From the IMG/VR virus record IMGVR_UViG_3300017963_000032, positions 15,465 through 79,464 of that record: 64,000 bases of DNA. The stretch is one strand, 5' to 3'. The notes beneath the pieces are model-generated. The model saw only the letters and a program-made list of their open reading frames with translations, made no database searches and was not told the DNA's origin. Positions within the stretch are counted from its first letter, which is position 1. Every line of letters starts with the position of its first letter. Below, piece after piece: positions 11,533 through 29,765 of the stretch. Position numbers and translations under genes: made by a program. The DNA comes from a virus. Taxonomy: Duplodnaviria > Caudoviricetes.

Positions 11533-11534
11533 AA

Positions 11535-11996
11535 ATGTTAACACAACTGCTTCAACAAAAAGAAGAATTGAGTGATTATTGTAAGGAACAAAAAATCCAT
11601 GGTTTCGAAGAAAGATTAAGAAGCCACATAGATGGTTATTGCATAGCAAATGGGGCCACATATAAAGATGAACCCCAGCTTAAATTGCAAGTTGACGCCT
11701 TGAATTATGCGCTTAACGACCAAAGAGCAATACCTGCATTTTTAAGACAACAGTTAGCTTATAGAGAAGAAGCAGAACAAAATGATGGGTATCATTACGG
11801 GGAGATAGTAGAAGAGATAACAGTTCCAGCTCTAAGCAGAAGGATACCTATTCAGAATGTAAGCAATGGCCCTCAAGAAGTAAAGGTTAATTATAAAGAA
11901 CCATTGGTTGTGATAGATGCAGGAGTTGGAGGGGATGTACATTACAACTGGAAAAAGATGGCGGCTCACAGAAAAGAGGTTAAGGAAACAAAATGA
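11535..11996 (+). CDS. hypothetical protein
   Basis: GGAGG RBS; 153-aa ORF inside the glycan cluster. Confidence 0.55.
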   Translation: MLTQLLQQKEELSDYCKEQKIHGFEERLRSHIDGYCIANGATYKDEPQLKLQVDALNYALNDQRAIPAFLRQQLAYREEAEQNDGYHYGEIVEEITVPALSRRIPIQNVSNGPQEVKVNYKEPLVVIDAGVGGDVHYNWKKMAAHRKEVKETK

Positions 11997-12865
11997 GAAT
12001 CGTAGCAGGAACACACGTACATAACGCAGAGAGATGGATTGGCTATGCAATAGCTTCAGTCCTTCCAGCAGTTGATGAAGTGCTTGTAGGAATCAGCAGG
12101 CAAACAACTGATAAGACAAGATTGATTGTTGAATCTATGGCTTCAATGAATGGTAAGATTAAGATTTATGATAATGACAGATGCGACTTAGTTGAAGGCG
12201 GATTTGGAACTGTCAAGACAGATATGATTAAAAGGTGCGGAGAGATGGGAGCTGATTGGATTCTTAATTTCGACCATGACCATGTATATTATCCAATAGA
12301 ACACGGGGTCTTGCACAAGCTCGCTGAAGAACAACAAAAGTTAGGCTTTAATGGGATAAAGTTCAGACAATACTTTGTTTATTCAGGTATCAGGACTCTT
12401 CCTTTAGACCCAGAAGTTAACAAGAAAGCAACCAATGCTGGTTATTCTATGTTCGCTAGCTTCTTCAAGTTCGAACCAGACCTAAAAGTTACAGGAGAAG
12501 TTCATGAGACTGTAAAGATAAAAGGGGCTTGGACATTTCATCCAGAATTTGACTTTGCTCATGTAGGTCCTCTAGGTCTTTCTGATTGGGAGACTGTTGA
12601 GAAAGAATTATTCTATGCAAAACTTAATCACAAGCTTGATAGTGAAGATGAAGAAATAGAATGGCTGAAGAAATGCCAAGAGATAAAATTCTTTCCAGAA
12701 TGCATGATTGATTTCACTGCAAGGAGAAGATTAGAATATCCTCTTGGTCTTCCATTATTGAGTGAAGTTAAAGAGGGAGGACTCCCACCAGTACTTGATA
12801 AGTACATCAATGGAAGTCACGCACTTGACATTGAATACTTAAAAGGGGTTGTAAACAATGAATGA
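11993..12865 (+). CDS. GT2-like glycosyltransferase
   Basis: NAERWI..AIAS...VDEVLV, TTDKT, DWILNFDHD and GEVHE motifs. Confidence 0.8.
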   Translation: MRIVAGTHVHNAERWIGYAIASVLPAVDEVLVGISRQTTDKTRLIVESMASMNGKIKIYDNDRCDLVEGGFGTVKTDMIKRCGEMGADWILNFDHDHVYYPIEHGVLHKLAEEQQKLGFNGIKFRQYFVYSGIRTLPLDPEVNKKATNAGYSMFASFFKFEPDLKVTGEVHETVKIKGAWTFHPEFDFAHVGPLGLSDWETVEKELFYAKLNHKLDSEDEEIEWLKKCQEIKFFPECMIDFTARRRLEYPLGLPLLSEVKEGGLPPVLDKYINGSHALDIEYLKGVVNNE

Positions 12866-13376
12866 TTGGAAGAAAGAACACACGGAACTTCATTATAACA
12901 CTCTAAGGTATTTATTTACCAGCATCAATAAGATTAGAGATGTTAAAGTGATGGTCGAGACAGGGATAGCGTCAGGACAATCTGGTAAAGTAATGCTTGA
13001 ATCTTGTCCTAAAGCAACTTATTACGGATATGATTTGTGGCTTGGTTACGATGAAGTAAATGAGAAACCAGCAAGGGCTTTGCTGGAATCATTTGAGAGA
13101 GTAAATATTCAAAAAATAAATACTCAGACGCTTGAGAAGTTTCCTGATAATGTAGACTTAATTTATGTTGATGGGGACCATTCAACTTTGGGTTGCTTGC
13201 ATGATTTGGAACTTGTTGAAAAACATTTAAGTCCAGAAGGAATCATAGTAGTTCATGATATGGACCATGTGCCCATACAAGAGGCTATTAAAATTTGGAA
13301 CAAAGATGAAAGATTCGGAAGTTTTGAGATTAAATTTGGCAGAGGATACGGAGTATTCTGGAGGAAAGAAAAATGA
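12858..13376 (+). CDS. class I SAM-dependent methyltransferase (Methyltransf_24-like)
   Basis: VETGIASGQS and DLIYVDGDH...IIVVHD. Confidence 0.85.
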   Translation: MNDWKKEHTELHYNTLRYLFTSINKIRDVKVMVETGIASGQSGKVMLESCPKATYYGYDLWLGYDEVNEKPARALLESFERVNIQKINTQTLEKFPDNVDLIYVDGDHSTLGCLHDLELVEKHLSPEGIIVVHDMDHVPIQEAIKIWNKDERFGSFEIKFGRGYGVFWRKEK

Positions 13377-14176
13377 ACAAAGAAATTGATGGAGACAGCG
13401 GAACACCAGTTAAAGATTTACCACCACTTACAATCGGAGACCAAGATGATAGAGAGTATTGGAATCAGCCTAGAGTTCTAGCCAGCACAGGAAAGAACTG
13501 GAAGGTAGACAAAGGAGGAATCCTTGAATGGTTTCAGAAATCTTGTGAAAAGCATGGAGTCCCTAAAGATGCTAAAGTTCTAGTCATAGGTGGAGGCCCG
13601 GGAAGATTGGTCAAAGGAATGCAACAATTACTTCAGCCATTGACTAAAGATTGGCACATCACAGTTGCAGAAGGCAGCGCAGGAATGGTAGAGAATGCAA
13701 AGAAAAACCTTGCAGAAATTCACCCTGATTGCCCAGATTCTAACAACCTTTGCAAAGTAGATTATTTACATAAGAATGCAATGGATTTAGAATATAAAGA
13801 ACAGTTCGATGTTATATGGACTTGCACAGTGTTGCAGCATAACAGCACAAAGAACAAAGATATTTTCGTTCCTAAAATGTACAATGCATTAAAGCCTCAA
13901 GGACTTTATATCTGTCTTGAAGGTACAAAGACTGAAAGAATGTGGGTAGACCCTACGCCTGAATATCCAGAAGGCCAGTTCAAAAAATACAACGAGCGAG
14001 GAAGGTTCACATTTGATTGGAGTGATTCAAAAGGAGCAAAAGGAACTGCTGCTTGGTTCATTAATTACATAGGCAAGCATGGTTTTGAGATTCAAGAGTA
14101 TGGCAGCCATCACATTGATTGGTTCGTGTTCAGAAAAATCAGAGAGGTTGGTGAGAATGGGGCAGAGGAATCCTAA
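13373..14176 (+). CDS. class I SAM-dependent methyltransferase
   Basis: VLVIGGGPG, FDVIWT..VLQH and LKPQG. Confidence 0.8.
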   Translation: MNKEIDGDSGTPVKDLPPLTIGDQDDREYWNQPRVLASTGKNWKVDKGGILEWFQKSCEKHGVPKDAKVLVIGGGPGRLVKGMQQLLQPLTKDWHITVAEGSAGMVENAKKNLAEIHPDCPDSNNLCKVDYLHKNAMDLEYKEQFDVIWTCTVLQHNSTKNKDIFVPKMYNALKPQGLYICLEGTKTERMWVDPTPEYPEGQFKKYNERGRFTFDWSDSKGAKGTAAWFINYIGKHGFEIQEYGSHHIDWFVFRKIREVGENGAEES

Positions 14177-14675
14177 GTTTTTAGATGTTGGAAGTGGAAA
14201 TCATCCACACCCCGAAGCTGGAGTTTTACTAGAGAAGTATAAAGATAACACTAGCCGGGGAGGAGACCTTGTAGTACCTGAAGGAGTAAAGTTTATAGAA
14301 GGTGACGTAGAGGATATGCCCTTCAAAGACAAAGAGTTTGACTTTGTGAATTGCAGCAATGTTCTTGAACACGTTGATGACCCTGAAAAAGCCTGCAAAG
14401 AATTAATGAGAGTTGCAAAAGCAGGGTACATCGAGTGCCCAAGATATTTCTGGGAAGTTCTTTTTGGAAGAAAATATCACAAATGGTTTGTTAACATAAA
14501 AGGTAACAAGATTATCTTTGTCAACAAGGCAGGAAAGATTCCTGAGAATACTTTTGACGGGGATAAGTTGTATTCTAATGTTCCTGAATTCAGGGAGATG
14601 TTTGTTAGTAACCATCACTTGTTCTATGCTAAGTTCCAATGGAAGGAATCATTCGAAGTGGAGGTGTCTAAGTGA
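14157..14675 (+). CDS. methyltransferase type 11-like
   Basis: LDVGSG, MPFKDKEFDFV..SNVLEHV.DP...ELMRVAK. Confidence 0.85.
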   Translation: MGQRNPKFLDVGSGNHPHPEAGVLLEKYKDNTSRGGDLVVPEGVKFIEGDVEDMPFKDKEFDFVNCSNVLEHVDDPEKACKELMRVAKAGYIECPRYFWEVLFGRKYHKWFVNIKGNKIIFVNKAGKIPENTFDGDKLYSNVPEFREMFVSNHHLFYAKFQWKESFEVEVSK

Positions 14676-15493
14676 AGGCATTAATAACTGGAGGTTCAGG
14701 ATTTATTGGAAGCCATATTATGAATCTCTTTGATTACGAATTTGAGAATATAGACATTCAAGTCGACAGGGATATTAGGAAAGCAAACATCAAAGGAAGT
14801 CCAAAAATATGTTTCCATCTGGCAAGCAAGTGTATAGTCAGGGATTGCATAACAACTCCTAACATAGCCTTCAGGAATAATGTTGAAGGAACATTCAATA
14901 TAATGGAAGGGTTGAGAAGAAAGGATGTAAAAGAATTAATATTGTTCAGTTCAAGCAGGGTTCTTTCTAAAGAGAAAAATACCTATACTGCATCTAAGAC
15001 TTATGCTGAAGGATTGGCTGAAGCTTACTGGGAATGTTATGGAATCAAGTACAAGATTATCAGGCCAAGCACAGTTTACGGAGAGCTCGATAAGACAGAT
15101 AGGATAATCCCTAGGTTCATTCGTGCTGCATTCAACGGCAGGCCTTTAGTAATATATGGTGATGACAAAAAGACATTGGACTTGACTTACATTAGAGACT
15201 TCATGAATGCATTTAAATTAGTGATGGACAGCCCGGTGTGGAATACAGATTATAACATTGCTAATGGAAAAGAAGTAAATGTTTTTGAAATAGCAAAGTA
15301 CGTGAAAGATATTACAGGGAGCAAATCAGAAATTGTATTCAGAGATTCTGAAGTTGCACAACCTCAAAGAGTCAAAGTTGATATTAACAAGATAAGAATG
15401 CTTGGTTACAGGCCACAGATGGATTGGAAAAAGGGGGTAGCTAAAACAATAGCTTGGTTGAAAAATGATGAAGAGCTTACTGGAAGAAATTAA
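14672..15493 (+). CDS. NAD-dependent sugar epimerase/dehydratase
   Basis: ITGGSGFIG, YTASK and RPSTVYG; GTG start. Confidence 0.9.
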   Translation: MKALITGGSGFIGSHIMNLFDYEFENIDIQVDRDIRKANIKGSPKICFHLASKCIVRDCITTPNIAFRNNVEGTFNIMEGLRRKDVKELILFSSSRVLSKEKNTYTASKTYAEGLAEAYWECYGIKYKIIRPSTVYGELDKTDRIIPRFIRAAFNGRPLVIYGDDKKTLDLTYIRDFMNAFKLVMDSPVWNTDYNIANGKEVNVFEIAKYVKDITGSKSEIVFRDSEVAQPQRVKVDINKIRMLGYRPQMDWKKGVAKTIAWLKNDEELTGRN

Positions 15494-15770
15494 AGCAATG
15501 CACAAGACTATTCGATTCTCAAATAAAGTCTTGATGATGGTCAACATAGTTAACATACTTACAATAGCGGTCTTGATAATAGCCCTATTTACTATGAGTG
15601 GTTGCACAATGGAAGAACCTGAAGAGCTGTACACTCAAGATGAATGTATAAATAAAACTGTTCCTTTATGCCATAAGGTTTGTAAAGAGAAAGTTCTGGA
15701 AGTTTTGAATGACCAAGAATTTAGAGAAGAATATTGCGAAGGAATAGTTGAAGACGTGGTGGTAATATGA
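15465..15770 (+). CDS. membrane protein/putative lipoprotein
   Basis: Hydrophobic helix ending in LFTMSGC. Confidence 0.5.
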   Translation: MMKSLLEEIKAMHKTIRFSNKVLMMVNIVNILTIAVLIIALFTMSGCTMEEPEELYTQDECINKTVPLCHKVCKEKVLEVLNDQEFREEYCEGIVEDVVVI

Positions 15771-16930
15771 AAAGAAGAATAGTTTATAACAGTCCATTAT
15801 GGAGTCATGAAGGAATAACAAAAAGCAGCAGAGAGTATGTAAAGCAGATAGCAAAGTTCAATAAAGTTTGGTTAACTCAGTTCCCAACAAATTATTTCGG
15901 ACCAGAGTTCACAAAGATGTACAACGCATTCTCAATCAAATCGGACAATCACATTCTTTTCAATTACGGCTGGACAGACCACTGGCATAGATATTTGAAA
16001 CACCACATAACAATAGGATATTCTGTTTATGAAGGAGACAATCCTCCGGGTTGTTGGATTAATAATATGAATCTTCCAACCATAAAAGAGGTTTGGGTTC
16101 CTAGTAATTATGTTAAAGATGTATACAAGAATGCAGGCGTGAAGAATAAACTTAGAGTTGTACCTCATGGTGTAGGTCCTCATGTTAAACCTATAAAAGT
16201 TGAGAGAAAGAAAACATTCAAATCAATCCATGGGGGAGACAAGTTGCTTGATAAATTTATCTTCTTCGGTATGGGTGCAGTGTGCGCTTTCGGAGAGAGA
16301 GACAGGAAAGGTGTTGATATTTTTCTTCAAGCATTCGAGCAAGAGTTCAAGAAAGAAACAGATGTCGCACTGATGCTGAAGCTTAATACAAATTATGCTA
16401 CTTCTATTGCTTTAGACAAAGGAGAACCTTTTGATGTTAATCAATGGTTAGGCCAGTACTTGACTCCAAAATCTAAAAATGTGTTTGTTCTTATACAAGA
16501 CCTGTCTGAAGAGCAATTAATTAGACTGTATAATTCCGTAGATGTTGGAGTATTTGCAAGCAGAGGAGAAGGTTTTGGTATGTGTGAGATGGAAATGATG
16601 GCATGCGACAAGCCAGTAATCACTACAGGATTTGGAGGGACTCTAGATTTTAGTCATCCAAGCTTGAGAATCAAAGTCAAAGAGATGTTAAATGCTGAGA
16701 GAGATAACGTTTCTGACCAGAGATACCCTTATGTTGGCAGCAAATGGGCAGAGCCCGATATAAAGGATTTGAGACGACTTATGAGAAAAGTTTACTCAAA
16801 CTACAAAAGAGCAAAGAAAACGGCTCAGGCTCATGGTAAGCACATCAGAAAGGACTTCTCATGGGATGTTATAGGTAAAGATATAGAGAAGTATATCGAA
16901 GACATCTGGAAGAAAGAAAAGAATCTTTAA
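15767..16930 (+). CDS. GT4-like glycosyltransferase
   Basis: WVPSNY..VPHGV, RKGVDI and SRGEGFGM..MEMMA...VITT. Confidence 0.88.
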   Translation: MKRRIVYNSPLWSHEGITKSSREYVKQIAKFNKVWLTQFPTNYFGPEFTKMYNAFSIKSDNHILFNYGWTDHWHRYLKHHITIGYSVYEGDNPPGCWINNMNLPTIKEVWVPSNYVKDVYKNAGVKNKLRVVPHGVGPHVKPIKVERKKTFKSIHGGDKLLDKFIFFGMGAVCAFGERDRKGVDIFLQAFEQEFKKETDVALMLKLNTNYATSIALDKGEPFDVNQWLGQYLTPKSKNVFVLIQDLSEEQLIRLYNSVDVGVFASRGEGFGMCEMEMMACDKPVITTGFGGTLDFSHPSLRIKVKEMLNAERDNVSDQRYPYVGSKWAEPDIKDLRRLMRKVYSNYKRAKKTAQAHGKHIRKDFSWDVIGKDIEKYIEDIWKKEKNL

Positions 16931-16939
16931 ATACTAATA

Positions 16940-17215
16940 ATGCAATGTTGCTATTGTAAGAGCAAGAAGGCGCATCTGCTCTTTGAAACGAAGAAAGAAT
17001 CATACTATAAGTGTAATACTTGTGGTACGATGTTCTCAATCAAACGTGGTGAAGATATGAAAGACAAATCTGGCCGTAAAATGCATTATTATCATCCAAC
17101 ATTTGATGCAAGTTATTGTACAAGATGTACAAATAAAAATTTTTTAACACATAATATTGATAAAGTTACCTGCATTCTCTGCAAAAACAAGATTGAGAAG
17201 GCACTTCAAGGATAA
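16940..17215 (+). CDS. Cys-rich Zn-finger protein
   Basis: Four CxxC pairs. Confidence 0.55.
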   Translation: MQCCYCKSKKAHLLFETKKESYYKCNTCGTMFSIKRGEDMKDKSGRKMHYYHPTFDASYCTRCTNKNFLTHNIDKVTCILCKNKIEKALQG

Positions 17216-17216
17216 A

Positions 17217-17520
17217 TCATATATACAAATGTATATCACATCCATATATCATTTTCATATTCAGTGGAAATAGAGGTCCACTGGAAATAAAGGCGGTTAA
17301 GTGCTCAAAGGATTGAATTTCTTAATTCTGGCCCCTCCTATTGGGATGCTGACCCCCCCTTATTTCTTGTGGAACTCTATTATATTATATATAGATTAAG
17401 CATATATTATATTATATTATATAAGAACTACATGAGAATTGAATATCACATCTCCAGTGGAAATGAAGGGGGGTGGGTTATATATTAGTATATACTAATC
17501 ATATATACATTTGTATATCT
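17217..17520. other. putative replication origin with ORB elements and AT-rich DUE
   Basis: ORB-like boxes: 17260-17277 TTCAGTGGAAATAGAGGT, 17277-17297 TCCACTGGAAATAAAGGCGGT, 17352-17375 (minus) GTTCCACAAGAAATAAGGGGGGGT, 17453-17474 TCCAGTGGAAATGAAGGGGGGT. (TA)-rich tract at 17378-17424. Confidence 0.78.
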
Positions 17521-17533
17521 TAATGAAATGTAA

Positions 17534-17550
17534 CCGAAAAGTATTTATAT
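17534..17550 (+). promoter_or_regulatory. BRE/TATA promoter
   Basis: CCGAAAAGTATTTATAT upstream of ATG 17606. Confidence 0.6.
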
Positions 17551-17605
17551 TACATATACTTTACACTCAAAATTAAGCATTAATCAATTAAACGAGGCGG
17601 AAAAT

Positions 17606-17791
17606 ATGGAATCGTGGAATAAACTCGTAGGAAAAGAAGTTGTAGTAATATACAATGACAATGGCAGGCATCCAATAAAGAAAATAGGATTTCTGCTGGA
17701 GCATGACTTACACAACTTTGCACTACAATCTGAAAAGAAAGACCCTGAAATTCTGAACAAGGCACAAATCATAAGGGTGGTGCCAAAATGA
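17606..17791 (+). CDS. small protein, possibly Sm/LSm-like fold
   Basis: LVGKEVVV...GFLLEHD...ILNKAQIIRV; GAGGCGG RBS. Confidence 0.4.
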   Translation: MESWNKLVGKEVVVIYNDNGRHPIKKIGFLLEHDLHNFALQSEKKDPEILNKAQIIRVVPK

Positions 17792-18147
17792 AACAACAAA
17801 AATTAATCAGACTTAGTGAAGATGTTCTCAAAGACATTCAACTAAATGACTGCATGGATAACTTCTCTGACTGGGTAGAAAGAGCCTATAGAAATGAGTT
17901 CATGACCATGAAGAACAAGAAAGAGCAACTGGAGAAAATCAAAGCTGAAGCAGAAAGACTAGAGAAAGAAGTTGCATTGATGAAAGAAGAAGATGAGAAG
18001 AGAATGTCAAAGAGTGACAGAGTTTTCTGCAACATCTGCGGAGAGTCAGCAATAGATGAAGTCAAAATTAATGGACTAATCACTTGCAAGCAATGTTACT
18101 TGACAAGAAGTGAAGAGCTCAGAAAAAAGAGAAGGGACGGACAATGA
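17788..18147 (+). CDS. coiled-coil plus Zn-finger protein
   Basis: CNIC...CKQC. Confidence 0.55.
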   Translation: MKQQKLIRLSEDVLKDIQLNDCMDNFSDWVERAYRNEFMTMKNKKEQLEKIKAEAERLEKEVALMKEEDEKRMSKSDRVFCNICGESAIDEVKINGLITCKQCYLTRSEELRKKRRDGQ

Positions 18148-18521
18148 CTTGGCAATGTAAAAAGGGGTGTAGCGAGTGTTGCGGAGTCATACCAATGAAG
18201 AAAGACTGGGCCAAGAAGCACGAGAAAAAAGCAATGGTCCAGCCAGAAGAGATACTTCCATTCATCAAAGATGACGAGATTGTAGTGATGACAGAGGACT
18301 GCAAGTGCGTTTTTTTAGATAGAGTTAATAATAAGTGTGTCGTATATAATGATAGACCTGAGATTTGCAGGAAATATGGGCGTAGCGAAGATATTCCATG
18401 CAAGTACATAAAACCCAATGGAAACCCCAGAAGTCCTGCGCAAGTTAAGAGAGTTAGCAGACAGGTCGACAAACAACTGACGCACTTTATGCAGAGGTTG
18501 GCAAAAGAGGTGGAAAGATGA
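18144..18521 (+). CDS. YkgJ-like cysteine-cluster (Zn/Fe-chelating) protein
   Basis: CxxGCSECC...CVFLD...CVVYNDRPEICRKY. Confidence 0.8.
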   Translation: MTWQCKKGCSECCGVIPMKKDWAKKHEKKAMVQPEEILPFIKDDEIVVMTEDCKCVFLDRVNNKCVVYNDRPEICRKYGRSEDIPCKYIKPNGNPRSPAQVKRVSRQVDKQLTHFMQRLAKEVER

Positions 18522-18712
18522 GCATTGACCAAACAGTGAAGGAGAAACCTAAATACCAACAACCACACAACATACATTTTAATCTGGGTTATCACAACCC
18601 AGCATTGTACGAGCATCTTAGATTGAAGGAACATGCAAGGCAGAAATATGATGCAATGTACAATCAACAAAAAAAAGGAGGCGGTTATAATGAGGATAGA
18701 GTTGGAAGGTAA
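18518..18712 (+). CDS. hypothetical protein
   Basis: Coupled short ORF. Confidence 0.4.
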   Translation: MSIDQTVKEKPKYQQPHNIHFNLGYHNPALYEHLRLKEHARQKYDAMYNQQKKGGGYNEDRVGR

Positions 18713-18962
18713 GCAAGTGCTACTGGGTGTACTCATTACTATATTACTATTGGGTACACTAGTGGCTTTGCCAATGTATACATACAAGTTAGGAAAAGAC
18801 AGTAAAACAACATGCACGTACAGGCCTGCAAAGTGTCCGGTATGTCCTGTGTGTCCTGAGACACCAGAGAATTTAGACATTAATCTGAACAGCAAAGGGG
18901 ATTGTATTATGATAACTCAGCCCGGAGACAAAGAAGGAACCATGAGGTGTAAGTTAACATGA
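18690..18962 (+). CDS. single-TM membrane protein with Cys-Pro repeat
   Basis: GGAGGCGG RBS, TM helix and CPVCPVCP. Confidence 0.55.
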   Translation: MRIELEGKQVLLGVLITILLLGTLVALPMYTYKLGKDSKTTCTYRPAKCPVCPVCPETPENLDINLNSKGDCIMITQPGDKEGTMRCKLT

Positions 18963-19192
18963 CATGGTTCGAGACTTATCTTTATCATCAGTATGGTAGC
19001 AAAAAGACTATGTTGATTGATTGGTACAGAATACCTGATGGGATAGATGCTTACAAAGACAGCCACGGAGTCAACTACAATTACATGAGAGACCAACTCA
19101 AAGACATGGGAGATGTCATGGGCTTTGACAATCCAAAAGCAAAGATAGAGAAGAGGGCAGACGTCACTATAGATGACTGCATTGGACTATGA
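18959..19192 (+). CDS. hypothetical protein
   Basis: Coupled ORF. Confidence 0.5.
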   Translation: MTWFETYLYHQYGSKKTMLIDWYRIPDGIDAYKDSHGVNYNYMRDQLKDMGDVMGFDNPKAKIEKRADVTIDDCIGL

Positions 19193-19473
19193 AAGTAATT
19201 GATTTGCTAAAGAAAGCATTGTCTCATTGGGGGATAGACATGCAAGCTGGAATGTTGAATGAAGAGATGGCAGAGTTAACAATAGCAGTTAATAAGTACA
19301 GAAGAAAGCCAAACAAGATAACCAAAGCAGCTGTTGCAGAAGAGATTGCAGACGTTAGGATAATGCTGGAGCAGATAGAGTTAGCATTCAAAATAACTCC
19401 AGAGCAAAAAGCTTATTGGAGAAAACATAAGTTGTACAAGTTAGAGAGGTTGATTGAACATGGGAGAAGATGA
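19189..19473 (+). CDS. MazG-like NTP pyrophosphohydrolase
   Basis: EEMAEL...EEIADV..MLEQI. Confidence 0.85.
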   Translation: MKVIDLLKKALSHWGIDMQAGMLNEEMAELTIAVNKYRRKPNKITKAAVAEEIADVRIMLEQIELAFKITPEQKAYWRKHKLYKLERLIEHGRR

Positions 19474-19894
19474 TTTTTATGAAGAAGGAGACACTTGCCC
19501 AAGCTGTAAGAAAGGGATGCTTGTTGTTGGAGTACCAAGCGAAGCTACTGGTGGCTTGTGTGAGTTGAGATGTCAGGATTGTAATTATGATGCGACCGAT
19601 GATGACACAAAAGGATACACAAAAAATCCATGGGGATGGGAGAAGATAATACACCAGAACAAGAAGTGGACTGTTAAGCTCTTACATATCAAAGCAGGAC
19701 ACCAACTAAGTGAACAGTATCATACTAAGAAAGGAGAGTTTATGTTTGATGAAGAGAAGATGCGTTATTTTCCTGCAAAGACTGTTCATAGGCCTAGCGC
19801 AAAAGGAAGGAAGACAGACCTAGAAATCATAGAGGTCTCAACAAACGTCAAAGATGAGATAGTCAGACTTAAAGATGACTATGGAAGAAAATGA
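19460..19894 (+). CDS. Zn-ribbon plus cupin (mannose-6-P isomerase type II C-terminal-like)
   Basis: CPSC/CQDC, then NPWGWEKI...LHIKAGHQLSEQYH. Confidence 0.7.
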   Translation: MGEDDFYEEGDTCPSCKKGMLVVGVPSEATGGLCELRCQDCNYDATDDDTKGYTKNPWGWEKIIHQNKKWTVKLLHIKAGHQLSEQYHTKKGEFMFDEEKMRYFPAKTVHRPSAKGRKTDLEIIEVSTNVKDEIVRLKDDYGRK

Positions 19895-20622
19895 AAAACT
19901 TAATCTTAGACATGGATGGAGTTATCAGTGAGAGCAGAACTCCTGCAAGTTCTGATATGATTATTGAGCTTGCAAGACTCGCAGAGAAGTACAGGCTTTG
20001 CGTAATCTCTGGAGGAACTTTATCTTTGATGAAGTATCAGTTCTTAGATAGATTACTTGGAGCCCTCCCACAAAGAGTTTACATTGATTTGCTTCCAACA
20101 TCTGGTCTTGCTTATTATAGGACTGCTATGGGCGAGATTGTGGAATGGTATTTTGAAGAGATGCAGCATGACTTGAGGATAAAAATAGTCAGGATTGCAA
20201 GTGAAGTCTTAAAGAAATCTGCAACCAAACCGATTACTCTTGATGTAATTGAAGACAGGCAAACTCAAATTACAATTTCTGTTCTTGGAAGGAGCGCACC
20301 ATTAGAGGACAAAAAAAGATACGACCCGCTTGGAACAAAGAGAAAGCATTTAGTTACCAAGCTGAAGAGATTGCTCCCGTCTGGACTGTCAATTAAGATT
20401 GGAGGCACAACAAGTATAGATATTACAGAGGATGGAAAGGACAAAGGATATGGCCTAAACAGTTACAGAGAGAGAACAGGGATAAGATTCCAAGATTCGA
20501 TGTATATAGGAGATAGCTTGCACAAAGGAGGCAACGATTATCCTGCAAAACTGCTCATGCCAGAGACAAGCTTTAACGTTAATAGCCCCGAAGAAGCCTT
20601 GAAATTGCTTAAAAGTCTGTAA
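19891..20622 (+). CDS. HAD IIB family phosphomannomutase-like enzyme
   Basis: DMDGVI, ISGG, GGTTSIDI...DKGYGL and GDSL..GGND. Confidence 0.85.
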   Translation: MKNLILDMDGVISESRTPASSDMIIELARLAEKYRLCVISGGTLSLMKYQFLDRLLGALPQRVYIDLLPTSGLAYYRTAMGEIVEWYFEEMQHDLRIKIVRIASEVLKKSATKPITLDVIEDRQTQITISVLGRSAPLEDKKRYDPLGTKRKHLVTKLKRLLPSGLSIKIGGTTSIDITEDGKDKGYGLNSYRERTGIRFQDSMYIGDSLHKGGNDYPAKLLMPETSFNVNSPEEALKLLKSL

Positions 20623-20623
20623 G

Positions 20624-20691
20624 AAAAACGAAACATTTATATACTAGCTATACTTACATAAGTGTAAGACGTTAAATCAAGTCGGAGGCGA
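20624..20691 (+). promoter_or_regulatory. promoter with CTTAC-N6-GTAAG operator (copy 1) and RBS
   Basis: AAAAACGAAACATTTATATA, CTTAC(20653)-ATAAGT-GTAAG(20668), GGAGGCGA at 20684. Confidence 0.7.
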
Positions 20692-20696
20692 GACAA

Positions 20697-20999
20697 ATGG
20701 AAATAAAACAAATCGAATCAAAGGTTAAGGACATGGCGCATATATCTGGGTACAAACCAGAAGAGTACAGCAAGTGTGAACTTGTAGATGCACAAAGGAG
20801 AATTAACGCATTGATGTCATGGGCTAATATAAATGAAGATGCAGACCTAATGCAAGCATGTCATAATGTAGCAAAAGAGTTTGTTTGGCAGAAAGGCTAT
20901 GCACAAGAACCTAACGAATATATCCTTGTACAAGAACAGAATATTCACGAATCAGTTCAAAGAGTAATTGATAAGATTAGGGAAGAGAAAAATGAATAA
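20697..20999 (+). CDS. hypothetical protein
   Basis: First gene after the promoter. Confidence 0.6.
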   Translation: MEIKQIESKVKDMAHISGYKPEEYSKCELVDAQRRINALMSWANINEDADLMQACHNVAKEFVWQKGYAQEPNEYILVQEQNIHESVQRVIDKIREEKNE

Positions 21000-21132
21000 G
21001 AAAGAACTCATACAAGAAATGAAGGAAAACATCAAACCATATGCTTTACCAAGAAGTATTAACAGCAGGAGCAAAGCAGAGCTCGAGAAAACTTATGAAG
21101 AAGCTAAGAGACTGGGGTTGACAAAACAATGA
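20992..21132 (+). CDS. 46-aa hypothetical helical protein
   Basis: Read manually: MNKKELIQEMK...RSKAELEKTYEEAKRLGLTKQ*. Confidence 0.45.
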   Translation: MNKKELIQEMKENIKPYALPRSINSRSKAELEKTYEEAKRLGLTKQ

Positions 21133-21773
21133 AGGCCAAAGCTTCTTTTTCAATTCTTTTACCATACTTGATGACAGAGTACGAGCAACTAAAACCTCTT
21201 GCAATAGCAACAGTCAAGGAGGGCACAAGATACAGATGGTACTTCAACTGGGAAGACTTCGAATCAGTTGCAAAGCTCGTAGGAAAAGACATCGAGTTCG
21301 AGAAAGGAGAAATCGAAAGCATGTTGGAAATGAGCCCTGCAATGAAAAGAGCAATAAAGACAGACAGATACAAAGGCACAGGAAAGTTTGAAATCAAATG
21401 GAGAAGCCCTAAGATTTACATTATAGAAACAATCATTAACAAAAAAGTCGTGCAGAAGAAGATACCTGTTGAAGCAATTCAAACAGCATGGGATGTAATG
21501 AGGAATTACCCCATTAACAAACCTATCAAGACCAGAACAGTTGCTGAAAGAATTTGTGACCTCTTAGGAATAGACCGATTCAACAGGGAAGAGTCAGGAA
21601 CATTTGACTTTGCAAAGTTCTTCGGAGAGAGAGCAGACTATTACCGCTACTTTTATGCGCCAATAAAAGTATTGGAGGCCGAGGGGGTGGTCCTCCATCA
21701 TAAAGATGGGCGTGTAGAGAGAACAGTTGACAGCTGGGAATTACAGACTGAGTTCGATGAGGATGTACAATGA
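21129..21773 (+). CDS. hypothetical protein
   Basis: 214-aa coupled ORF. Confidence 0.65.
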   Translation: MKAKASFSILLPYLMTEYEQLKPLAIATVKEGTRYRWYFNWEDFESVAKLVGKDIEFEKGEIESMLEMSPAMKRAIKTDRYKGTGKFEIKWRSPKIYIIETIINKKVVQKKIPVEAIQTAWDVMRNYPINKPIKTRTVAERICDLLGIDRFNREESGTFDFAKFFGERADYYRYFYAPIKVLEAEGVVLHHKDGRVERTVDSWELQTEFDEDVQ

Positions 21774-21937
21774 GCGCAGTATACAAAGTGATGTGCCCCA
21801 AGTGTGGGGGAAAGCAACTTACAGAACCAAGAGGACTAATAACTACTGCTAGGAAGAAGTGTGTTTATTGTGGCAAGAGCTTCAAGATTCACACCCACAT
21901 AGCAAAGAGCAGTACAATATTGGAGCGAGTGAGGTAA
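21770..21937 (+). CDS. Zn-ribbon microprotein
   Basis: Read manually: MSAVYKVMCPKCG...CVYCGKSF. Confidence 0.55.
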   Translation: MSAVYKVMCPKCGGKQLTEPRGLITTARKKCVYCGKSFKIHTHIAKSSTILERVR

Positions 21938-22125
21938 TAAAAATGGATGATATACATGATGTACACTGCACAGACACAGTTGAGAGTTGTAAAGATTGCC
22001 CAAGATACATGGATGATTGCGATGGAATGGAAGGAACAGACGATGACTAGGTTTCACATGAAAATAACCGAAAATTATATATATGACAAGTGTTTAATGA
22101 ATAAAAACACATGCAGGTGATGTTC

Positions 22126-22257
22126 ATGAAAATAGAAGTAGAGGCGGAAGAAACACTCAACAAAAAGGTGCCAGTGACGAAATCACCTTCGCCAGCCATA
22201 TATGTTCCTAAACATTGGGAAGGGCGGAAAATATTGATTATCTTAGAAAAAGAATAA
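22126..22257 (+). CDS. DUF2080/AbrB-like small DNA-binding protein
   Basis: Read manually: KKVPVTKSPSPAIYVPKHWEGRKILII. AGGTGA RBS and own TATA at 22068-22083. Confidence 0.55.
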   Translation: MKIEVEAEETLNKKVPVTKSPSPAIYVPKHWEGRKILIILEKE

Positions 22258-22272
22258 TTGGAGGCGAGATAC

Positions 22273-22719
22273 ATGACAAACGAAATAGAAGGTATCGTAG
22301 AGAATGTCAGTCAAAAGACTGGCGGAATCTGCATAGGTGGAAAGTGGTACAGCAGTACAGACAGAACAAAGAAATTTGTTTTGCAGGCCAACAAAGGAGA
22401 CAAGGTCAAGATAGAGATTGACGATAAGAACGCAGTCAACTTCATCAAGACATTGCAAAAGAATTCTAATTCTGGAGGCAATTCACAACCTATGAATGTT
22501 CCAGAAGAAAGAGTAGAGACCAACGAAGAGCAAAGAAAAAGGGTAGTCGAAAACATGGGCAACATCCATAGAGATTGCATGGAAAAGACTATTGAGAATC
22601 TTAGCTCAGAGAAGTTTACTTTTATGAAGGAACTTCCGATAGACAAGAAGTCAGAGCTCATTGGCCAACAGACTAGCACACTTTTTATCCAAGTATGCAA
22701 GGCTTTAGGGTACAAATAA
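22273..22719 (+). CDS. possible OB-fold ssDNA-binding protein
   Basis: Beta-rich N-terminus IEGIVENVSQK.GGICIGGKWY, low-complexity linker, GGAGGCGA RBS. Confidence 0.4.
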   Translation: MTNEIEGIVENVSQKTGGICIGGKWYSSTDRTKKFVLQANKGDKVKIEIDDKNAVNFIKTLQKNSNSGGNSQPMNVPEERVETNEEQRKRVVENMGNIHRDCMEKTIENLSSEKFTFMKELPIDKKSELIGQQTSTLFIQVCKALGYK

Positions 22720-22734
22720 ACGGAGGCGGAAACC

Positions 22735-22992
22735 ATGGAATTAAAATACAAAGAACTGAACATAAAAGAGAATGATTCAGACGAGACAGCAATAGCAGTA
22801 TTTGATGGACAGACAGGAGCAAGTATGACCATCAAACTTCAGATAAGAGGGGACAAAGAAGAAATCGACAAGTTCTTGAAAGAACACAAGATAACTGCAT
22901 ACAATCAAGTCATCAGTGCAGAGTTCAAGAACAATCAGAAGACTCTTGCAGAGAGTACAAAAAAACCTGAAGAAGAAAAGAAAGCTGAATGA
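22735..22992 (+). CDS. hypothetical protein
   Basis: GGAGGCGG RBS. Confidence 0.55.
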   Translation: MELKYKELNIKENDSDETAIAVFDGQTGASMTIKLQIRGDKEEIDKFLKEHKITAYNQVISAEFKNNQKTLAESTKKPEEEKKAE

Positions 22993-23264
22993 ATACTGAT
23001 AGATACAAAAAGGCTGAAAAACTAATCACTGAAGGGCAAGTAGTACTAGAGTCAAAAACTCAGAAGGCATTGTACTTCAAAGTCAAATGCTATGATGTAA
23101 GAATAGGTATGGAACAGAACAGTTGCACTTGTCATCATTACACTTATGATGCAGGATTAAAAAAGAACTGTTCCCATATCATTGCAGCTGAAGCATATTT
23201 AGTTTTCCAGTCTTATAAGATTGTGAAAAATGGAACCGCTAATAAAAGAAGAAGACCTAAGTAG
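22989..23264 (+). CDS. SWIM-type Zn-finger protein
   Basis: SCTC...NCSHIIA. Confidence 0.7.
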   Translation: MNTDRYKKAEKLITEGQVVLESKTQKALYFKVKCYDVRIGMEQNSCTCHHYTYDAGLKKNCSHIIAAEAYLVFQSYKIVKNGTANKRRRPK

Positions 23265-23436
23265 GAAATGCAAAAATTGTTATTATATGAGGGAGCATTT
23301 AGAGAATGGGGCTGAACTCCCAGTTGACTGTGAAAGAAGAGTGAGGACAAATAACCTTGTCACTCCATGCAAAAACAAACCAGTCATAGAAAAAATGTTC
23401 AAAACTAATGGAGAAGAAGATGATGAAGAAGATTGA
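23230..23436 (+). CDS. Cys-containing hypothetical protein
   Basis: CKNC...C...C. Confidence 0.45.
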   Translation: MEPLIKEEDLSRKCKNCYYMREHLENGAELPVDCERRVRTNNLVTPCKNKPVIEKMFKTNGEEDDEED

Positions 23437-23848
23437 AGAAGGAGTAGGAGACCTTCAGCAACAGATTCAAGATAATGACAGCTTGATGATTTACAAGAAG
23501 CTTCAAGAGAGCAAGAAGTTCAGACGGATGATGGACACACACTTTGATATAAAAGTCAAAGTAGATACCATGGAACCGATAGAGATAACAGATACTGAGA
23601 AAGGACAATCCATGGTTCAGATTGGAATGAAGAGAGGAGTAACAATCAGAGAGAGAAACATTATTGAAAGATTCTTTGCAAGAATATTAATCAGATGTCA
23701 TGAGATAATCAAAAAATTGGAGGCGAGACATAATGACACTACACGAGGAGACTCAGGAACTTCATGTAAATGCAGTGGAGACAAGCACATGCATGATAGG
23801 GAAGGAAAGGGAAGAGACAAAGGAAGGCTGGATAAGCATAAAAAGTAA
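23408..23848 (+). CDS. hypothetical protein
   Basis: ORF whose 3' end overlaps the next gene. Confidence 0.45.
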   Translation: MEKKMMKKIEEGVGDLQQQIQDNDSLMIYKKLQESKKFRRMMDTHFDIKVKVDTMEPIEITDTEKGQSMVQIGMKRGVTIRERNIIERFFARILIRCHEIIKKLEARHNDTTRGDSGTSCKCSGDKHMHDREGKGRDKGRLDKHKK

Positions 23849-23993
23849 AGACCTTCACAAGTACAAGAACCACACACTCAAGATAAAAATTATTGTAGAA
23901 GAGGACTTAGGAATATTCTGTGTCCACTGCAATACTAAACTAGAAGAAGAAAAAAAGATGTGCGCCAAGTGCGGGAGGAAAGTGTTACGATGA
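23733..23993 (+). CDS. Zn-ribbon protein
   Basis: CVHC...CAKC; GGAGGCGA RBS. Confidence 0.55.
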   Translation: MTLHEETQELHVNAVETSTCMIGKEREETKEGWISIKSKDLHKYKNHTLKIKIIVEEDLGIFCVHCNTKLEEEKKMCAKCGRKVLR

Positions 23994-24787: not shown

Positions 24788-24939
24788 AATGTCCTAAGTG
24801 CGGAAAAGAAGGATGCAAGTACGTTGATGAGAAAAAGCTCAAAGAAGTTGAAGATAAAAATAAAGTGAAAAGGAAAATGTATGCAAGAGATTCAAACAAA
24901 GTCATATGCAACAAATGCGGTTACGAGGGAAACGCATGA
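24784..24939 (+). CDS. Zn-ribbon microprotein
   Basis: Read manually: MKCPKCG...ICNKCG. Confidence 0.55.
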   Translation: MKCPKCGKEGCKYVDEKKLKEVEDKNKVKRKMYARDSNKVICNKCGYEGNA

Positions 24940-25045
24940 CTCTCGCAATCAGTCAGATGTTTTGCCACGTGTTCACCAAGGGGGTTATCTCTTTTCCCTC
25001 CTTTCTTAGCGCAGCTTTTCATAGACTGGCGATGAGGTTTTGAAT

Positions 25046-25165
25046 ATGGCTAAGTGTTATAACTGCGGAAAGGAACTTGAAGACATCATGAAAGAAGAAG
25101 GTTACGAGACAGTGTTCAGATGTCATAATTGTGGCGCTTTGAACAGTGTAAGGGGGGAAGAATGA
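25046..25165 (+). CDS. Zn-ribbon microprotein
   Basis: Read manually: MAKCYNCG...RCHNCG. Confidence 0.5.
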   Translation: MAKCYNCGKELEDIMKEEGYETVFRCHNCGALNSVRGEE

Positions 25166-25943: not shown

Positions 25944-25944
25944 A

Positions 25945-26931: not shown

Positions 26932-27148
26932 TATAGATTTACAATGGTTGCTTGGATTACCAGCATACATTAGGTGTCCAAAGTGCAAGGAGAAAACAAG
27001 AAGCTGGTTTGATGATTATGACATTGACTGCGGAGAACCTCAATCTAAAGATGGAGTCATGACATTGGATGTACAATGTGACCATTGTGAGGAAGAGATA
27101 CAGTTCAAAGTAGAAATAAAACAAAAGGAGAGTGATTCAGATGAGTAA
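26921..27148 (+). CDS. Zn-ribbon protein
   Basis: CPKC...CDHC. Confidence 0.55.
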   Translation: MGHNIDLQWLLGLPAYIRCPKCKEKTRSWFDDYDIDCGEPQSKDGVMTLDVQCDHCEEEIQFKVEIKQKESDSDE

Positions 27149-27902
27149 GTTAGTATTCGCAGACATTGACTTTTTTAAGAAAGCAATGAAATCAATAAGT
27201 GTTTTGTTATTGGAAGCAACAATAGAGCTTGACCAAGAAGGTATGAGAATCAAAAGCATGGACCCTGCAAACGTGGCCATGGTTGATTTCTACATCAGGG
27301 CTGATACTTTTCCAGAGTATGATGTGAAAGAAGAGGGAGAAAAGCACACATTCAAGGTTGAGACTTTGCTAGCATTCTTGAAAAGAGCTAATGCAAAAGA
27401 CATAGTGACTCTAGAGTTTGATGAGAAGATGCACGTAAAGATTAAGAGCGAGAACAATAAAGAGTTCGGAACTACATTGATTGGTATTGAACCAGACAAA
27501 ACTCCAGACACTGTCAAGTTAGATTTTGATTTTGAAACAACAATGCCTACAGAACAATTCAATTCAGTATGCAATGATATTGCAACCATGGGTGACAGTG
27601 TGGTGCTTGTTGGAGATAAGGAAAGGATTGTCATGAGGGCAGAATCTGACAAGATGGTTGATAGCTTTGGAGAGATTAAATTGTCAGCTGATAACAAGGT
27701 AAAGATGAAGGAAGGAGTTGAAGCTGCAAAGGTCAAGCTGAGTTCGGAGTATATCAACAAGATTGTAGACTCAATCAAGAAGATAACAGAGAATGTTAAG
27801 ATTCAGTTTGGAAATGATTATCCAATACTATTGACGTATTCAATGGCAGATAGAGCTTCTATAAGCTTCTTGGTTGCTCCAAGGGTGGACAATGAGGGAT
27901 GA
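27141..27902 (+). CDS. pcn: DNA sliding clamp PCNA
   Basis: SMDPANVAMVD, FGNDYPI and SFLVAPRV; about 250 aa. Confidence 0.93.
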   Translation: MSKLVFADIDFFKKAMKSISVLLLEATIELDQEGMRIKSMDPANVAMVDFYIRADTFPEYDVKEEGEKHTFKVETLLAFLKRANAKDIVTLEFDEKMHVKIKSENNKEFGTTLIGIEPDKTPDTVKLDFDFETTMPTEQFNSVCNDIATMGDSVVLVGDKERIVMRAESDKMVDSFGEIKLSADNKVKMKEGVEAAKVKLSSEYINKIVDSIKKITENVKIQFGNDYPILLTYSMADRASISFLVAPRVDNEG

Positions 27903-28207: not shown

Positions 28208-28214
28208 AACCAAT

Positions 28215-29764: not shown

Positions 29765-29765
29765 A

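What the first reader, a model, noticed from the sequence alone, without database searches (positions are those of the whole stretch)
17217..17520. Cellular-type archaeal oriC (ORB boxes plus DUE) in a virus with no initiator gene
Seen: four ORB-like boxes, two with long G-strings (TCCAGTGGAAATGAAGGGGGGT at 17453; inverted GTTCCACAAGAAATAAGGGGGGGT at 17352-75), with an AT tract at 17378-17424 between that inverted pair. The region is bracketed by a 16-bp quasi-palindrome in inverted copies (17221-36, 17503-18) and contains a perfect 16-bp palindrome (17484-99). Known: ORBs are the Orc1/Cdc6 binding sites of archaeal chromosomal origins, which normally sit beside an orc1/cdc6 gene. Seen: I recognise no Orc1, MCM, primase or polymerase in the 5-41 kb non-structural region. 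Inference: the virus mimics the host origin to hijack Orc1/Cdc6-MCM loading, and the palindromes may bind a viral regulator.
Basis: partly seen in the sequence, partly recalled or inferred. Interest (0 to 1): 0.82.

Follow-up and report, generated by a model that had tools for sequence, protein, structure and literature searches.

The report
Host-type replication origin in archaeal virus
A complete 79-kb tailed archaeal virus carries a textbook archaeal chromosome-style replication origin (Orc1-binding ORB boxes around the most easily melted DNA of its genome) but no recognisable initiator, helicase, primase or polymerase gene, so it most likely borrows the host's own initiator to start copying itself.

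Summary
Window 17216-17605 is the largest non-coding gap in the protein-coding part of a complete 79,464-bp tailed archaeal virus with direct terminal repeats. It holds four ORB-type boxes found nowhere else in the genome. The inverted pair ORB3(-)/ORB4(+) brackets the least stable 50 bp of the whole genome, with the same polarity as chromosomal oriCs. Two copies of a 16-bp quasi-palindrome and one perfect palindrome flank the boxes and are also unique.

Six-frame searches of the whole genome find no Orc1/Cdc6, MCM, AAA_22, PolB, primase or integrase.

The module of mini-ORBs, a full ORB with a G7 string and an AT tract recurs in at least five unrelated metagenomic contigs. Two of them place it upstream of a homologue of the virus's 119-aa early protein, so it is conserved and not a chance or passenger sequence.

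ORB4 is identical over 28 nt to the ORB of a low-GC Thermoplasmata lineage, but the host remains unresolved.

My reading, at about 0.6, is a host-Orc1/MCM-licensed viral origin, possibly modulated by a viral palindrome-binding protein. I found no published precedent in the library searched. This scan had already noted the same stretch, read from another window of this genome. Nothing here shows binding or origin firing.

The parts
17216..17237 (.). Left palindrome box ATCATATATACAAATGTATATC. Its core, 17221-17236, is a 7+2+7 quasi-palindrome.
   Evidence: Only two copies exist in the 79-kb genome, both in this gap, against 0.09 expected by chance.
17260..17276 (+). ORB1, a mini-ORB: TTCAGTGGAAATAGAGG, with no G-string.
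   Evidence: It matches the Methanomassiliicoccales consensus at 14 of 23 positions.
17277..17297 (+). ORB2: TCCACTGGAAATAAAGGCGGT, with an interrupted G-string. It forms a 33-nt inverted repeat with ORB3.
   Evidence: (repeat I1). It matches the archaeal ORB consensus at 18 of 23 positions. It aligns with an ORB in relative L225.
17352..17375 (-). ORB3, a full ORB with a G7 string: GTTCCACAAGAAATAAGGGGGGGT. Its core faces the DUE.
   Evidence: The box and the start of the AT tract after it are conserved in L225, L233/L237, L236, L238 and L240.
17376..17452 (.). AT-rich duplex-unwinding element between the inverted ORB3/ORB4 pair.
   Evidence: Positions 17376-17440 are 86% A+T. The 50-bp window from 17377 is the least stable duplex in the whole genome, more than 5 sd from the mean.
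17453..17480 (+). ORB4, a full ORB with a G6 string and a second G run: TCCAGTGGAAATGAAGGGGGGTGGGTTA.
   Evidence: It is identical over 28 nt to the ORB of 15 low-GC Thermoplasmata MAGs. It is also the only part of window 10001-30000 that BLAST finds in those genomes.
17484..17499 (.). Perfect 16-bp palindrome ATTAGTATATACTAAT.
   Evidence: It is unique in the genome. This stretch is the second least stable duplex region.
17497..17519 (.). Right palindrome box AATCATATATACATTTGTATATC, the second copy of the left box.
   Evidence: (repeat D2, 91% identical).
17535..17560 (+). Probable BRE/TATA promoter (CGAAAAGTATTTATATTA) of the downstream operon. An RBS-like GAGGCGG follows at about 17594.
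   Evidence: Read directly from the sequence. This is inference only. The bacterial-type scan does not apply to archaeal promoters.
17606..17791 (+). First gene after the gap: a 61-aa, beta-rich small protein of unknown function.
   Evidence: A gene of 62-67 aa sits in the same position in relatives, but without detectable sequence similarity.
17788..18147 (+). 119-aa protein with a conserved N-terminal beta-alpha-alpha domain, a coiled coil and a C-terminal CxxC...CxxC motif. It is a candidate binder of the palindromes.
   Evidence: pLDDT 87-98 over residues 1-70. The structural matches that cover the N-terminus are ribbon-helix-helix antitoxins, but weakly, at Z 4.3-5.5. Homologues lie just downstream of ORB or iteron gaps.
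27132..27902 (+). PCNA sliding clamp, the only replisome component the virus encodes.
   Evidence: PCNA_N E 4e-10 and PCNA_C E 4e-12. It is 27-35% identical to cellular PCNAs.

Best explanation
Window 17216-17605 is the replication origin of this tailed archaeal virus, and it is of the cellular ORB type. Host Orc1/Cdc6 is proposed to bind the four ORB boxes. The inverted pair ORB3(-)/ORB4(+) would then direct loading of host MCM onto the roughly 77-bp AT-rich element between them, which melts first. The host primase and polymerases would do the synthesis, with the virus supplying only its own PCNA clamp.

The flanking palindromes are probably operators for a small viral DNA-binding protein, most likely the 119-aa product of the second gene downstream. 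That protein would couple origin use, early transcription or both to the infection programme. After the first rounds, concatemer formation for packaging may rely on recombination, since a Cas4-like nuclease is encoded.

Shown: the sequence anatomy, its uniqueness in the genome, its conservation in relatives, and the absence of recognisable initiator, helicase and polymerase genes.

Inferred: Orc1 binding, MCM loading, and the role of the palindromes and the 119-aa protein.
For: Anatomy and statistics:
- Four ORB boxes are confined to the largest coding-region gap. The cluster was never reproduced in 300 simulated genomes.
- ORB2-4 match published consensus sequences at 15-18 of 23 positions.
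- The ORB4 pattern hits 112 stretches in 185,579 species, nearly all of them archaeal.
- Chromosomal oriCs of Methanogenium, Methanothrix and Methanosarcinaceae show the same (-)|AT-rich|(+) polarity.
- The tract between ORB3 and ORB4 is the least stable duplex in the genome.

Dependence on the host:
- The record is complete by CheckV and has a 123-bp direct terminal repeat.
- There are no six-frame hits to Cdc6_C, MCM, AAA_22, PolB, Prim-Pol or PriS.
- tblastn with a candidate-host Orc1, a relative's MCM and a relative's PolB finds nothing.
- The only P-loop ORFs are the terminase and a 106-aa ORF beside it.
- PCNA is present.

Conservation:
- The same module is in L225, with about 34 of 40 nt identical across ORB3 and the start of the AT tract, while the adjacent protein is only 30% identical.
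- It is also in L233/L237/L241, L236, L238 and L240.

Host match: ORB4 is the only segment of window 10001-30000 that 15 Thermoplasmata MAGs share with the virus.
Against: - No experiment supports this. There are no read-depth data, because only assembled contigs were on offer.
- GC and AT skew stay positive across the whole genome, with no inflection at the site. All genes are co-oriented, so skew is uninformative.
- The ORB3-ORB4 spacing of about 80 bp is shorter than the 200-600 bp seen in chromosomal origins.
- ORB1 and ORB2 point the 'wrong' way for a simple symmetric origin.
- Relatives conserve the ORB2/ORB3 convergent pair and the AT tract, but not ORB4.
- In the Thermoplasmata that share ORB4, the two ORBs lie 3.5-4.9 kb apart in tiny intergenic spaces, not beside orc1. 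They may therefore not be origins there.
- About 40 small viral ORFs have no assignable function, so a novel initiator could be hidden among them.
Confidence: 0.6

Rival explanations
1. The origin is run by a viral initiator that has not been recognised. The 119-aa ribbon-helix-helix-like protein, perhaps with the 61-aa protein or another orphan ORF, would bind the palindromes, melt the AT tract and recruit host MCM. The ORBs would be auxiliary, much as DnaA boxes are in plasmid origins that carry their own Rep.
For: - Homologues of the 119-aa protein always sit directly after a 400-620 bp gap that carries element-specific AT-rich palindromes or iterons. These are TTAATTAA in L223, AATATTATTTTGAAAA in L226, TATGCATA in L227 and TTATGAGTATA in L225. 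That pattern fits a co-evolving DNA-binding protein.
- In L226 the gene pair is followed directly by an MCM gene, so this is a replication module.
- The N-terminal domain is confidently modelled as beta-alpha-alpha.
- The only structural matches that cover the N-terminus are ribbon-helix-helix antitoxins.
Against: - The structural matches are weak (Z 4.3-5.5) and Foldseek finds nothing.
- Ribbon-helix-helix proteins are typically repressors, not initiators.
- This reading does not explain why full ORBs with G-strings are conserved across elements while the palindromes are not.
- The virus has no helicase for such a protein to load.
Confidence: 0.17
2. The ORB cluster is not an origin. It would be an Orc1-binding regulatory or decoy element. 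One version uses host Orc1 as a transcription factor for the adjacent early promoter, sensing the host cell cycle. The other titrates Orc1 away from the host chromosome.
For: - The cluster lies just upstream of the probable promoter of the next operon.
- In relatives it lies upstream of early genes or of TerL.
- In the Thermoplasmata that share ORB4, the ORBs sit at the start of inward-facing genes rather than at a DUE or beside orc1. That hints at a regulatory use of ORBs.
- Orc1 paralogues are known to act as regulators (PMC9738581, listed; Orc1/Cdc6 in lysogeny switches).
Against: - The genome's least stable duplex sits exactly between an inverted ORB pair. A pure operator does not predict that.
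- A virus with no initiator, helicase or polymerase still needs some way to recruit the host replisome.
- One cluster of four sites would be a poor sponge.
Confidence: 0.15
3. The boxes are inert passenger DNA picked up from a host origin, or they are an attachment site for integration.
For: - ORB4 is identical over 28-29 nt, and 85-90% identical over about 40 nt in some MAGs, to a cellular sequence.
- One element that carries the module, L240, encodes a tyrosine integrase.
Against: - Similarity to cellular genomes stops at the ORB itself.
- The four boxes differ from one another.
- The module is conserved in at least five other contigs whose proteins have diverged far.
- The virus has no Phage_integrase hit, and it has terminal repeats typical of a virion-packaged lytic genome.
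Confidence: 0.04

Closest known systems
Archaeal chromosomal oriC with ORB and mini-ORB boxes (Pyrococcus, Sulfolobus oriC1, Methanomassiliicoccales; consensus sequences quoted in PMC4153887 Table 2)
   Same: - The box sequence is the same: a dyad core TCCAGTGGA, then AAT, then a G-string, sometimes followed by a second G run.
- Inverted full ORBs flank an AT-rich unwinding element with the cores facing inward.
- Extra mini-ORBs lie alongside.
   Different: - It is on a 79-kb virus.
- There is no adjacent orc1/cdc6 gene, and none anywhere in the genome.
- The DUE is much shorter, with about 80 bp between boxes against 200-600 bp.
- Two boxes point towards ORB3 rather than away from the DUE.
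- There is no skew inflection.
Haloarchaeal and methanogen viruses and plasmids that carry their own orc1/cdc6 (e.g. BJ1, SNJ2, MSTV1; PMC2194725, PMC13612827, PMC12134362)
   Same: They are mobile elements of archaea that use the Orc1/Cdc6 system.
   Different: Those elements encode their own Orc1/Cdc6. This virus encodes none. In some of them the Orc1 is thought to act in the lysogeny switch rather than in initiation.
Thermococcales viruses with MCM but neither Orc1 nor ORBs (preprint PMC12934983), and Aeropyrum virus AGV1 (bioRxiv 10.1101/2021.04.21.440749)
   Same: They are archaeal viruses without Orc1/Cdc6, and the authors explicitly looked for ORBs in them.
   Different: Those studies report no classical ORBs. 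They propose origin recognition by the viral MCM, or no autonomous replication at all. Here classical ORBs are present and MCM is absent.
Host-licensed viral and plasmid origins in other domains: EBV oriP using cellular ORC/MCM, and oriC-type minichromosomes and plasmids with DnaA boxes (from general knowledge, not tested here)
   Same: The logic is the same: a mobile replicon carries binding sites for the cell's own initiator.
   Different: EBV still needs its own EBNA1 to recruit ORC, and most plasmids with DnaA boxes also encode a Rep protein. Here no viral partner is recognisable, although the 119-aa protein is a candidate.

Membership tests
ORB-type (Orc1/Cdc6-dependent) archaeal replication origin | Boxes that match the ORB consensus: a dyad core followed by a G-string. 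| tested here: met
   ORB2 matches the archaeal consensus at 18/23 positions. ORB3 matches the Methanomassiliicoccales consensus at 18/23. ORB4 matches both at 18/23. The ORB4 pattern is almost exclusive to archaeal genomes.
ORB-type (Orc1/Cdc6-dependent) archaeal replication origin | At least two ORBs in inverted orientation flanking an AT-rich duplex-unwinding element. | tested here: met
   ORB3(-) and ORB4(+) flank the least stable 50 bp of the genome. The polarity equals that of six chromosomal and other ORB loci examined.
ORB-type (Orc1/Cdc6-dependent) archaeal replication origin | An adjacent, or at least co-resident, orc1/cdc6 initiator gene. | tested here: not met
   There is no Cdc6_C or AAA_22 hit in six frames of the complete genome. 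tblastn with a Thermoplasmata Orc1 finds nothing.
ORB-type (Orc1/Cdc6-dependent) archaeal replication origin | Nucleotide-skew inflection at the origin. | tested here: inconclusive
   GC and AT skew are positive throughout with no switch. All genes share one strand, so coding bias dominates the signal.
ORB-type (Orc1/Cdc6-dependent) archaeal replication origin | Orc1/Cdc6 binding and initiation of DNA synthesis at the site. | not testable with these tools
   This needs EMSA or footprinting and origin mapping. Only assembled contigs of two DNA runs were available.
Iteron/Rep-type plasmid or phage origin | Repeated binding sites together with a cognate element-encoded initiator. | tested here: inconclusive
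   Two palindrome copies and a perfect palindrome are present. No known Rep family was found. The 119-aa protein is a candidate binder, but its fold assignment is weak.
Phage attachment site (attP) | A cognate integrase in the element. | tested here: not met
   There is no Phage_integrase hit in six frames, and no recombinase appeared in the Pfam scans.

The most novel reading that the evidence does not exclude
A lineage of uncultivated tailed archaeal viruses and related mobile elements replicates from a conserved, cellular-type ORB origin that is licensed entirely by the host's Orc1/Cdc6 and MCM, with no viral initiator. This would be the first archaeal counterpart of a host-licensed viral origin. 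The ORB sequence itself, for example the 28-nt ORB4 match, would then act as a host-range determinant that could be used to predict hosts.
Probability: 0.4. Interest if true: 0.78.

Novelty: new variant of a known kind. Interest (0 to 1): 0.68.

Why it matters
How archaeal viruses start DNA replication is largely unknown. Large tailed viruses are generally expected to bring at least a helicase or an initiator of their own.

A 79-kb virus that carries only the cis-acting half of the cellular origin system would show that full parasitism of Orc1/MCM licensing is possible in archaea. It would also give a compact, roughly 300-bp natural ARS-like cassette for genetics in uncultivated lineages, and a new sequence-based handle (ORB matching) for linking viruses to hosts.

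The recurrent pairing of the ORB module with a small conserved DNA-binding-like protein points to a testable viral control layer on host licensing.

Tried and rejected
- **Expression and coverage.** No RNA holder was listed for the stretch. Only two DNA runs, kept as contigs, hold it, so I laid no reads and made no marker-frequency profile.
- **Skew.** There is no inflection.
- **Rfam.** Nothing reached E below 0.28 or a gathering score in 16900-17900.
- **Bacterial promoter and terminator scan.** Matches were at the level of the shuffles.
- **Host by PCNA.** Only 27-35% identity to any cellular PCNA.
- **Host by tRNAs.** At most 82% identity to anything. Thirteen of the 14 candidate Thermoplasmata gave no hit at all.
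- **Host by the ORB3 variant.** It occurs in both the DPANN-type phylum and Thermoplasmatota.
- **Host by CRISPR spacers.** About 55 kb of the virus was searched against 15-21 MAGs. The short hits are not in repeat arrays.
- **Lineage-specificity of the ORB4 extension.** I first took TGGGTTA as lineage-specific. I down-weighted it because a second G run after the G-string is common in ORBs.
- **Close relatives in IMG/VR.** Single-protein scans with PCNA and TerL found none. A TerL-profile scan found only relatives at 32% identity or less, without ORBs. The TerL relative L202 has no ORB cluster in the 21 kb seen.
- **Relatives sharing the glycosylation cluster.** L218 and L220 have no ORBs, and L218 carries its own PolB.
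- **The three IMG/VR contigs with ORB4-like boxes.** L002-L004 are 4-5 kb fragments. No Cdc6_C was found in the two that could be searched.
- **Fold of the 119-aa protein.** Foldseek found nothing at E of 0.001 or better. VIA-align gave only weak matches to ribbon-helix-helix antitoxins.
- **L240's 322-aa AAA+-like protein.** It has no PDB sequence match.

Full report
**What the window is.** The window is bases 15465-79464 of a 79,464-bp IMG/VR virus record. The record has a 123-bp direct terminal repeat and CheckV rates it 100% complete.

It is a tailed virus:
- large terminase at 42341-44023;
- portal with a Mu-F domain at 44474-46669;
- tail tube in the first 15 kb.

It is archaeal in character, with PCNA, PTH2, Ro60, RlaP and at least 16 tRNA genes found by ARAGORN. 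Nearly all genes are on the + strand.

**The observation.** The stretch 17216-17605 is the longest non-coding gap in the protein-coding part of the genome.
- ORB1 17260-17276 (+), ORB2 17277-17297 (+), ORB3 17352-17375 (-), ORB4 17453-17474 (+);
- an AT tract between ORB3 and ORB4;
- a quasi-palindrome at 17221-36 and again at 17503-18;
- a perfect palindrome at 17484-99.

The repeat finder output shows ORB2/ORB3 as a 33-nt inverted repeat and ORB3/ORB4 as a 22-nt one.

These elements are not chance.
- The ORB cores occur as a cluster only here in the whole genome.
- Four loose cores within 215 bp were never approached in 300 simulated genomes, where the largest cluster was 2, seen once.
- The strict core occurs once in 902 kb of other viral DNA.
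- The palindromes are unique, with 0.09 and 0.02 matches expected.

**Are they really ORBs?** A published table gives the archaeal consensus as CTTCCAGTGGAAACGAAAGGGGT and a Methanomassiliicoccales consensus as GTTCCAGTGGAAATGG-AGGGGTA. It also notes a frequent second G run (PMC4153887).
- ORB2, ORB3 and ORB4 match these consensus sequences at 15-18 of 23 positions. ORB1 is a mini-ORB.
- A scan of one genome from each of 185,579 species with a 20-nt ORB4 pattern gave 112 stretches. Nearly all were archaeal: Thermoplasmata, Methanosarcinales, Methanomicrobiales, Asgard and DPANN.
- In loci with several boxes (Methanogenium, Methanothrix, Methanosarcinaceae and others) the layout is minus-strand ORBs, then an AT-rich gap, then plus-strand ORBs. 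ORB3, the AT tract and ORB4 have that same polarity.
- A nearest-neighbour stability scan puts the least stable 50 bp of the entire genome at 17377-17427, exactly between ORB3 and ORB4. Its dG is -44.3 against a genome mean of -64.1, sd 3.7. The second least stable window covers the palindromes just right of ORB4.

**Is there an initiator?**
- Six-frame HMM searches of the complete genome found no Cdc6_C, MCM, AAA_22, PolB, Prim-Pol, PriS or tyrosine integrase. The positive controls rang.
- tblastn with an Orc1 from a candidate host, an MCM and an AAA+ protein from related elements, and a PolB from a relative gave only noise.
- P-loop motifs occur only in the terminase and in a 106-aa ORF beside it. 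That ORF scores below the AAA_14 threshold.
- Pfam and PHROG scans of about 90 ORFs found sugar and RNA-repair enzymes but no replication initiator.
- About 40 small ORFs remain orphans, so the defensible wording is 'no recognisable initiator'.

**Comparative evidence.** An exhaustive HMMER search with the 119-aa protein encoded just downstream (17788-18147) found 23 weak homologues of 73-153 aa, plus one 313-aa match that I left out. They share an N-terminal region of about 40 aa followed by a coiled coil.

In every context I fetched, the homologue follows a 400-620 bp repeat-rich gap.
- **L225** (32.6-kb JGI contig, TerL nearby). The gap holds two plus-strand ORBs, a minus-strand full ORB with a G7 string, and an AT tract. 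It aligns with ORB2, ORB3 and the start of the DUE in the virus. About 34 of 40 nt are identical there, although the adjacent protein is only 30% identical.
- **Other gaps** carry element-specific palindromic repeats instead. In L226 an MCM gene follows directly, which marks this as a replication module.

A metagenome scan with the ORB3 sequence found the same module (mini-ORBs, full ORB, AT tract) in four further contig groups:
- L233/L237/L241, next to a TerL gene;
- L236, next to a homologue of the 119-aa protein;
- L238;
- L240, which carries an integrase, methylases and a weak AAA+ protein.

The module is therefore a conserved functional element of a group of archaeal mobile elements. It is not a recent passenger. 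ORB4 is specific to this virus.

**Host.** BLAST of window 10001-30000 against 15 low-GC Thermoplasmata MAGs from hydrothermal and sediment sites returns essentially only ORB4, at 26-40 nt and 83-100% identity. The 28 nt TCCAGTGGAAATGAAGGGGGGTGGGTTA are identical in many of them.

In the five MAGs scanned with the ORB pattern, the ORB occurs exactly twice per genome at full match. The two copies are inverted, 3.5-4.9 kb apart. In the locus I annotated (L041) they flank a radical-SAM gene and an HflX gene, next to the PolD small subunit and SRP RNA. orc1 lies on another contig, with no ORBs nearby.

This is a lead rather than proof, for four reasons.
- A second G run is common in ORBs.
- PCNA and tRNA comparisons do not favour these MAGs.
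- The ORB3 variant occurs in both DPANN-type genomes and Thermoplasmatota.
- The short BLAST hits to 21 MAGs do not lie in CRISPR arrays.

The virus is held by sediment and seawater/marine-sediment metagenome runs. The low G+C of the related contigs (24-41%) is compatible with that. I leave the host open.

**Mechanism.** The most economical reading (about 0.6) is a host-licensed origin, working in three steps.
1. Host Orc1/Cdc6 binds the ORBs.
2. MCM is loaded at the AT tract between ORB3 and ORB4.
3. The host replisome, with the viral PCNA, copies the genome.

The palindromes, and a probable BRE/TATA at about 17535-17560, suggest that a small viral protein gates origin use or early transcription. 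The 119-aa protein is the candidate. It models with high confidence as beta-alpha-alpha plus a long helix. It resembles ribbon-helix-helix antitoxins only weakly.

The rival readings are:
- an unrecognised viral initiator acting at the palindromes, with the ORBs auxiliary (0.17);
- a regulatory or decoy Orc1 site (0.15);
- inert captured DNA or an attP site (0.04).

**Novelty.** In the library searched, I found archaeal viruses linked to Orc1 only where they carry their own gene. Two studies looked for ORBs in viruses that lack Orc1 and reported none: AGV1 and the Thermococcales viruses preprint PMC12934983. I found no report of classical ORBs in an archaeal virus without an initiator. The library is incomplete, so I rate this a new variant of a known kind.

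Noticed in passing
L041:2150-2169 and 5672-5691 (also L037, L046, L072, L095 and about ten other Thermoplasmata MAG loci): A lineage of low-GC Thermoplasmata MAGs carries a conserved 36-nt ORB element (ATAAACTTTCCAGTGGAAAT[G/A]AAGGGGGGTGGGT..). In the five MAGs scanned it occurs exactly twice per genome at full match. The copies are inverted and 3.5-4.9 kb apart. In L041 they flank a radical-SAM gene and an HflX gene beside the PolD small subunit and SRP RNA. The single orc1 gene lies on another contig with no ORBs nearby. This is an unusual origin layout or a non-origin use of ORBs.
   Followed up: partly
L226:1360-4429: A related element has AATATTATTTTGAAAA-type inverted iterons in the gap upstream of its homologue of the 119-aa protein. 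A 670-aa MCM gene follows immediately. So the same gene module is coupled either to ORBs without a helicase or to iterons with a viral MCM.
   Followed up: partly
L218:1-21167 (77-kb ENA/NCBI contig, binned as Halanaerobiales): A contig with 27% G+C shares the virus's glycosyltransferase, methyltransferase and epimerase cluster in the same gene order, with GT4 56% identical. Where the virus has its ORB gap, this contig has an oppositely oriented block with PolB, DNA ligase, ThyX, dUTPase and GIY-YIG, and no ORBs. It is probably a virus that was wrongly binned into a bacterial MAG.
   Followed up: partly
window 41516-42384: A 106-aa ORF with a P-loop (GQRQAGKT; AAA_14 at 19.7 bits, below the cut-off) and a 181-aa orphan ORF in another frame lie directly before the large terminase. 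The terminase itself is about 100 aa longer than its relatives. This may be a split or unusual packaging ATPase, or a small terminase.
   Followed up: partly
window 35097-35981: A 294-aa protein with no Pfam hit matches phrog_6247 ('DNA topoisomerase') at E 1e-90 over its full length. It sits directly upstream of RlaP in the RNA-repair block, so the PHROG name may be misleading.
   Followed up: no
L240:1281-7849: An 8-kb metagenomic contig carries the same ORB module next to a tyrosine integrase, two DNA methylases and a 322-aa protein with weak AAA_22 and HTH hits. It is likely an integrative element that uses the same origin type, perhaps with its own AAA+ protein.
   Followed up: partly
window 7700-24787: About 17 kb of glycosyltransferases, methyltransferases, an epimerase, phosphomannomutase, a mannose-6-phosphate isomerase fragment and UDP-glucose dehydrogenase surround the origin gap. 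That is a very large sugar-modification investment for a virus.
   Followed up: no
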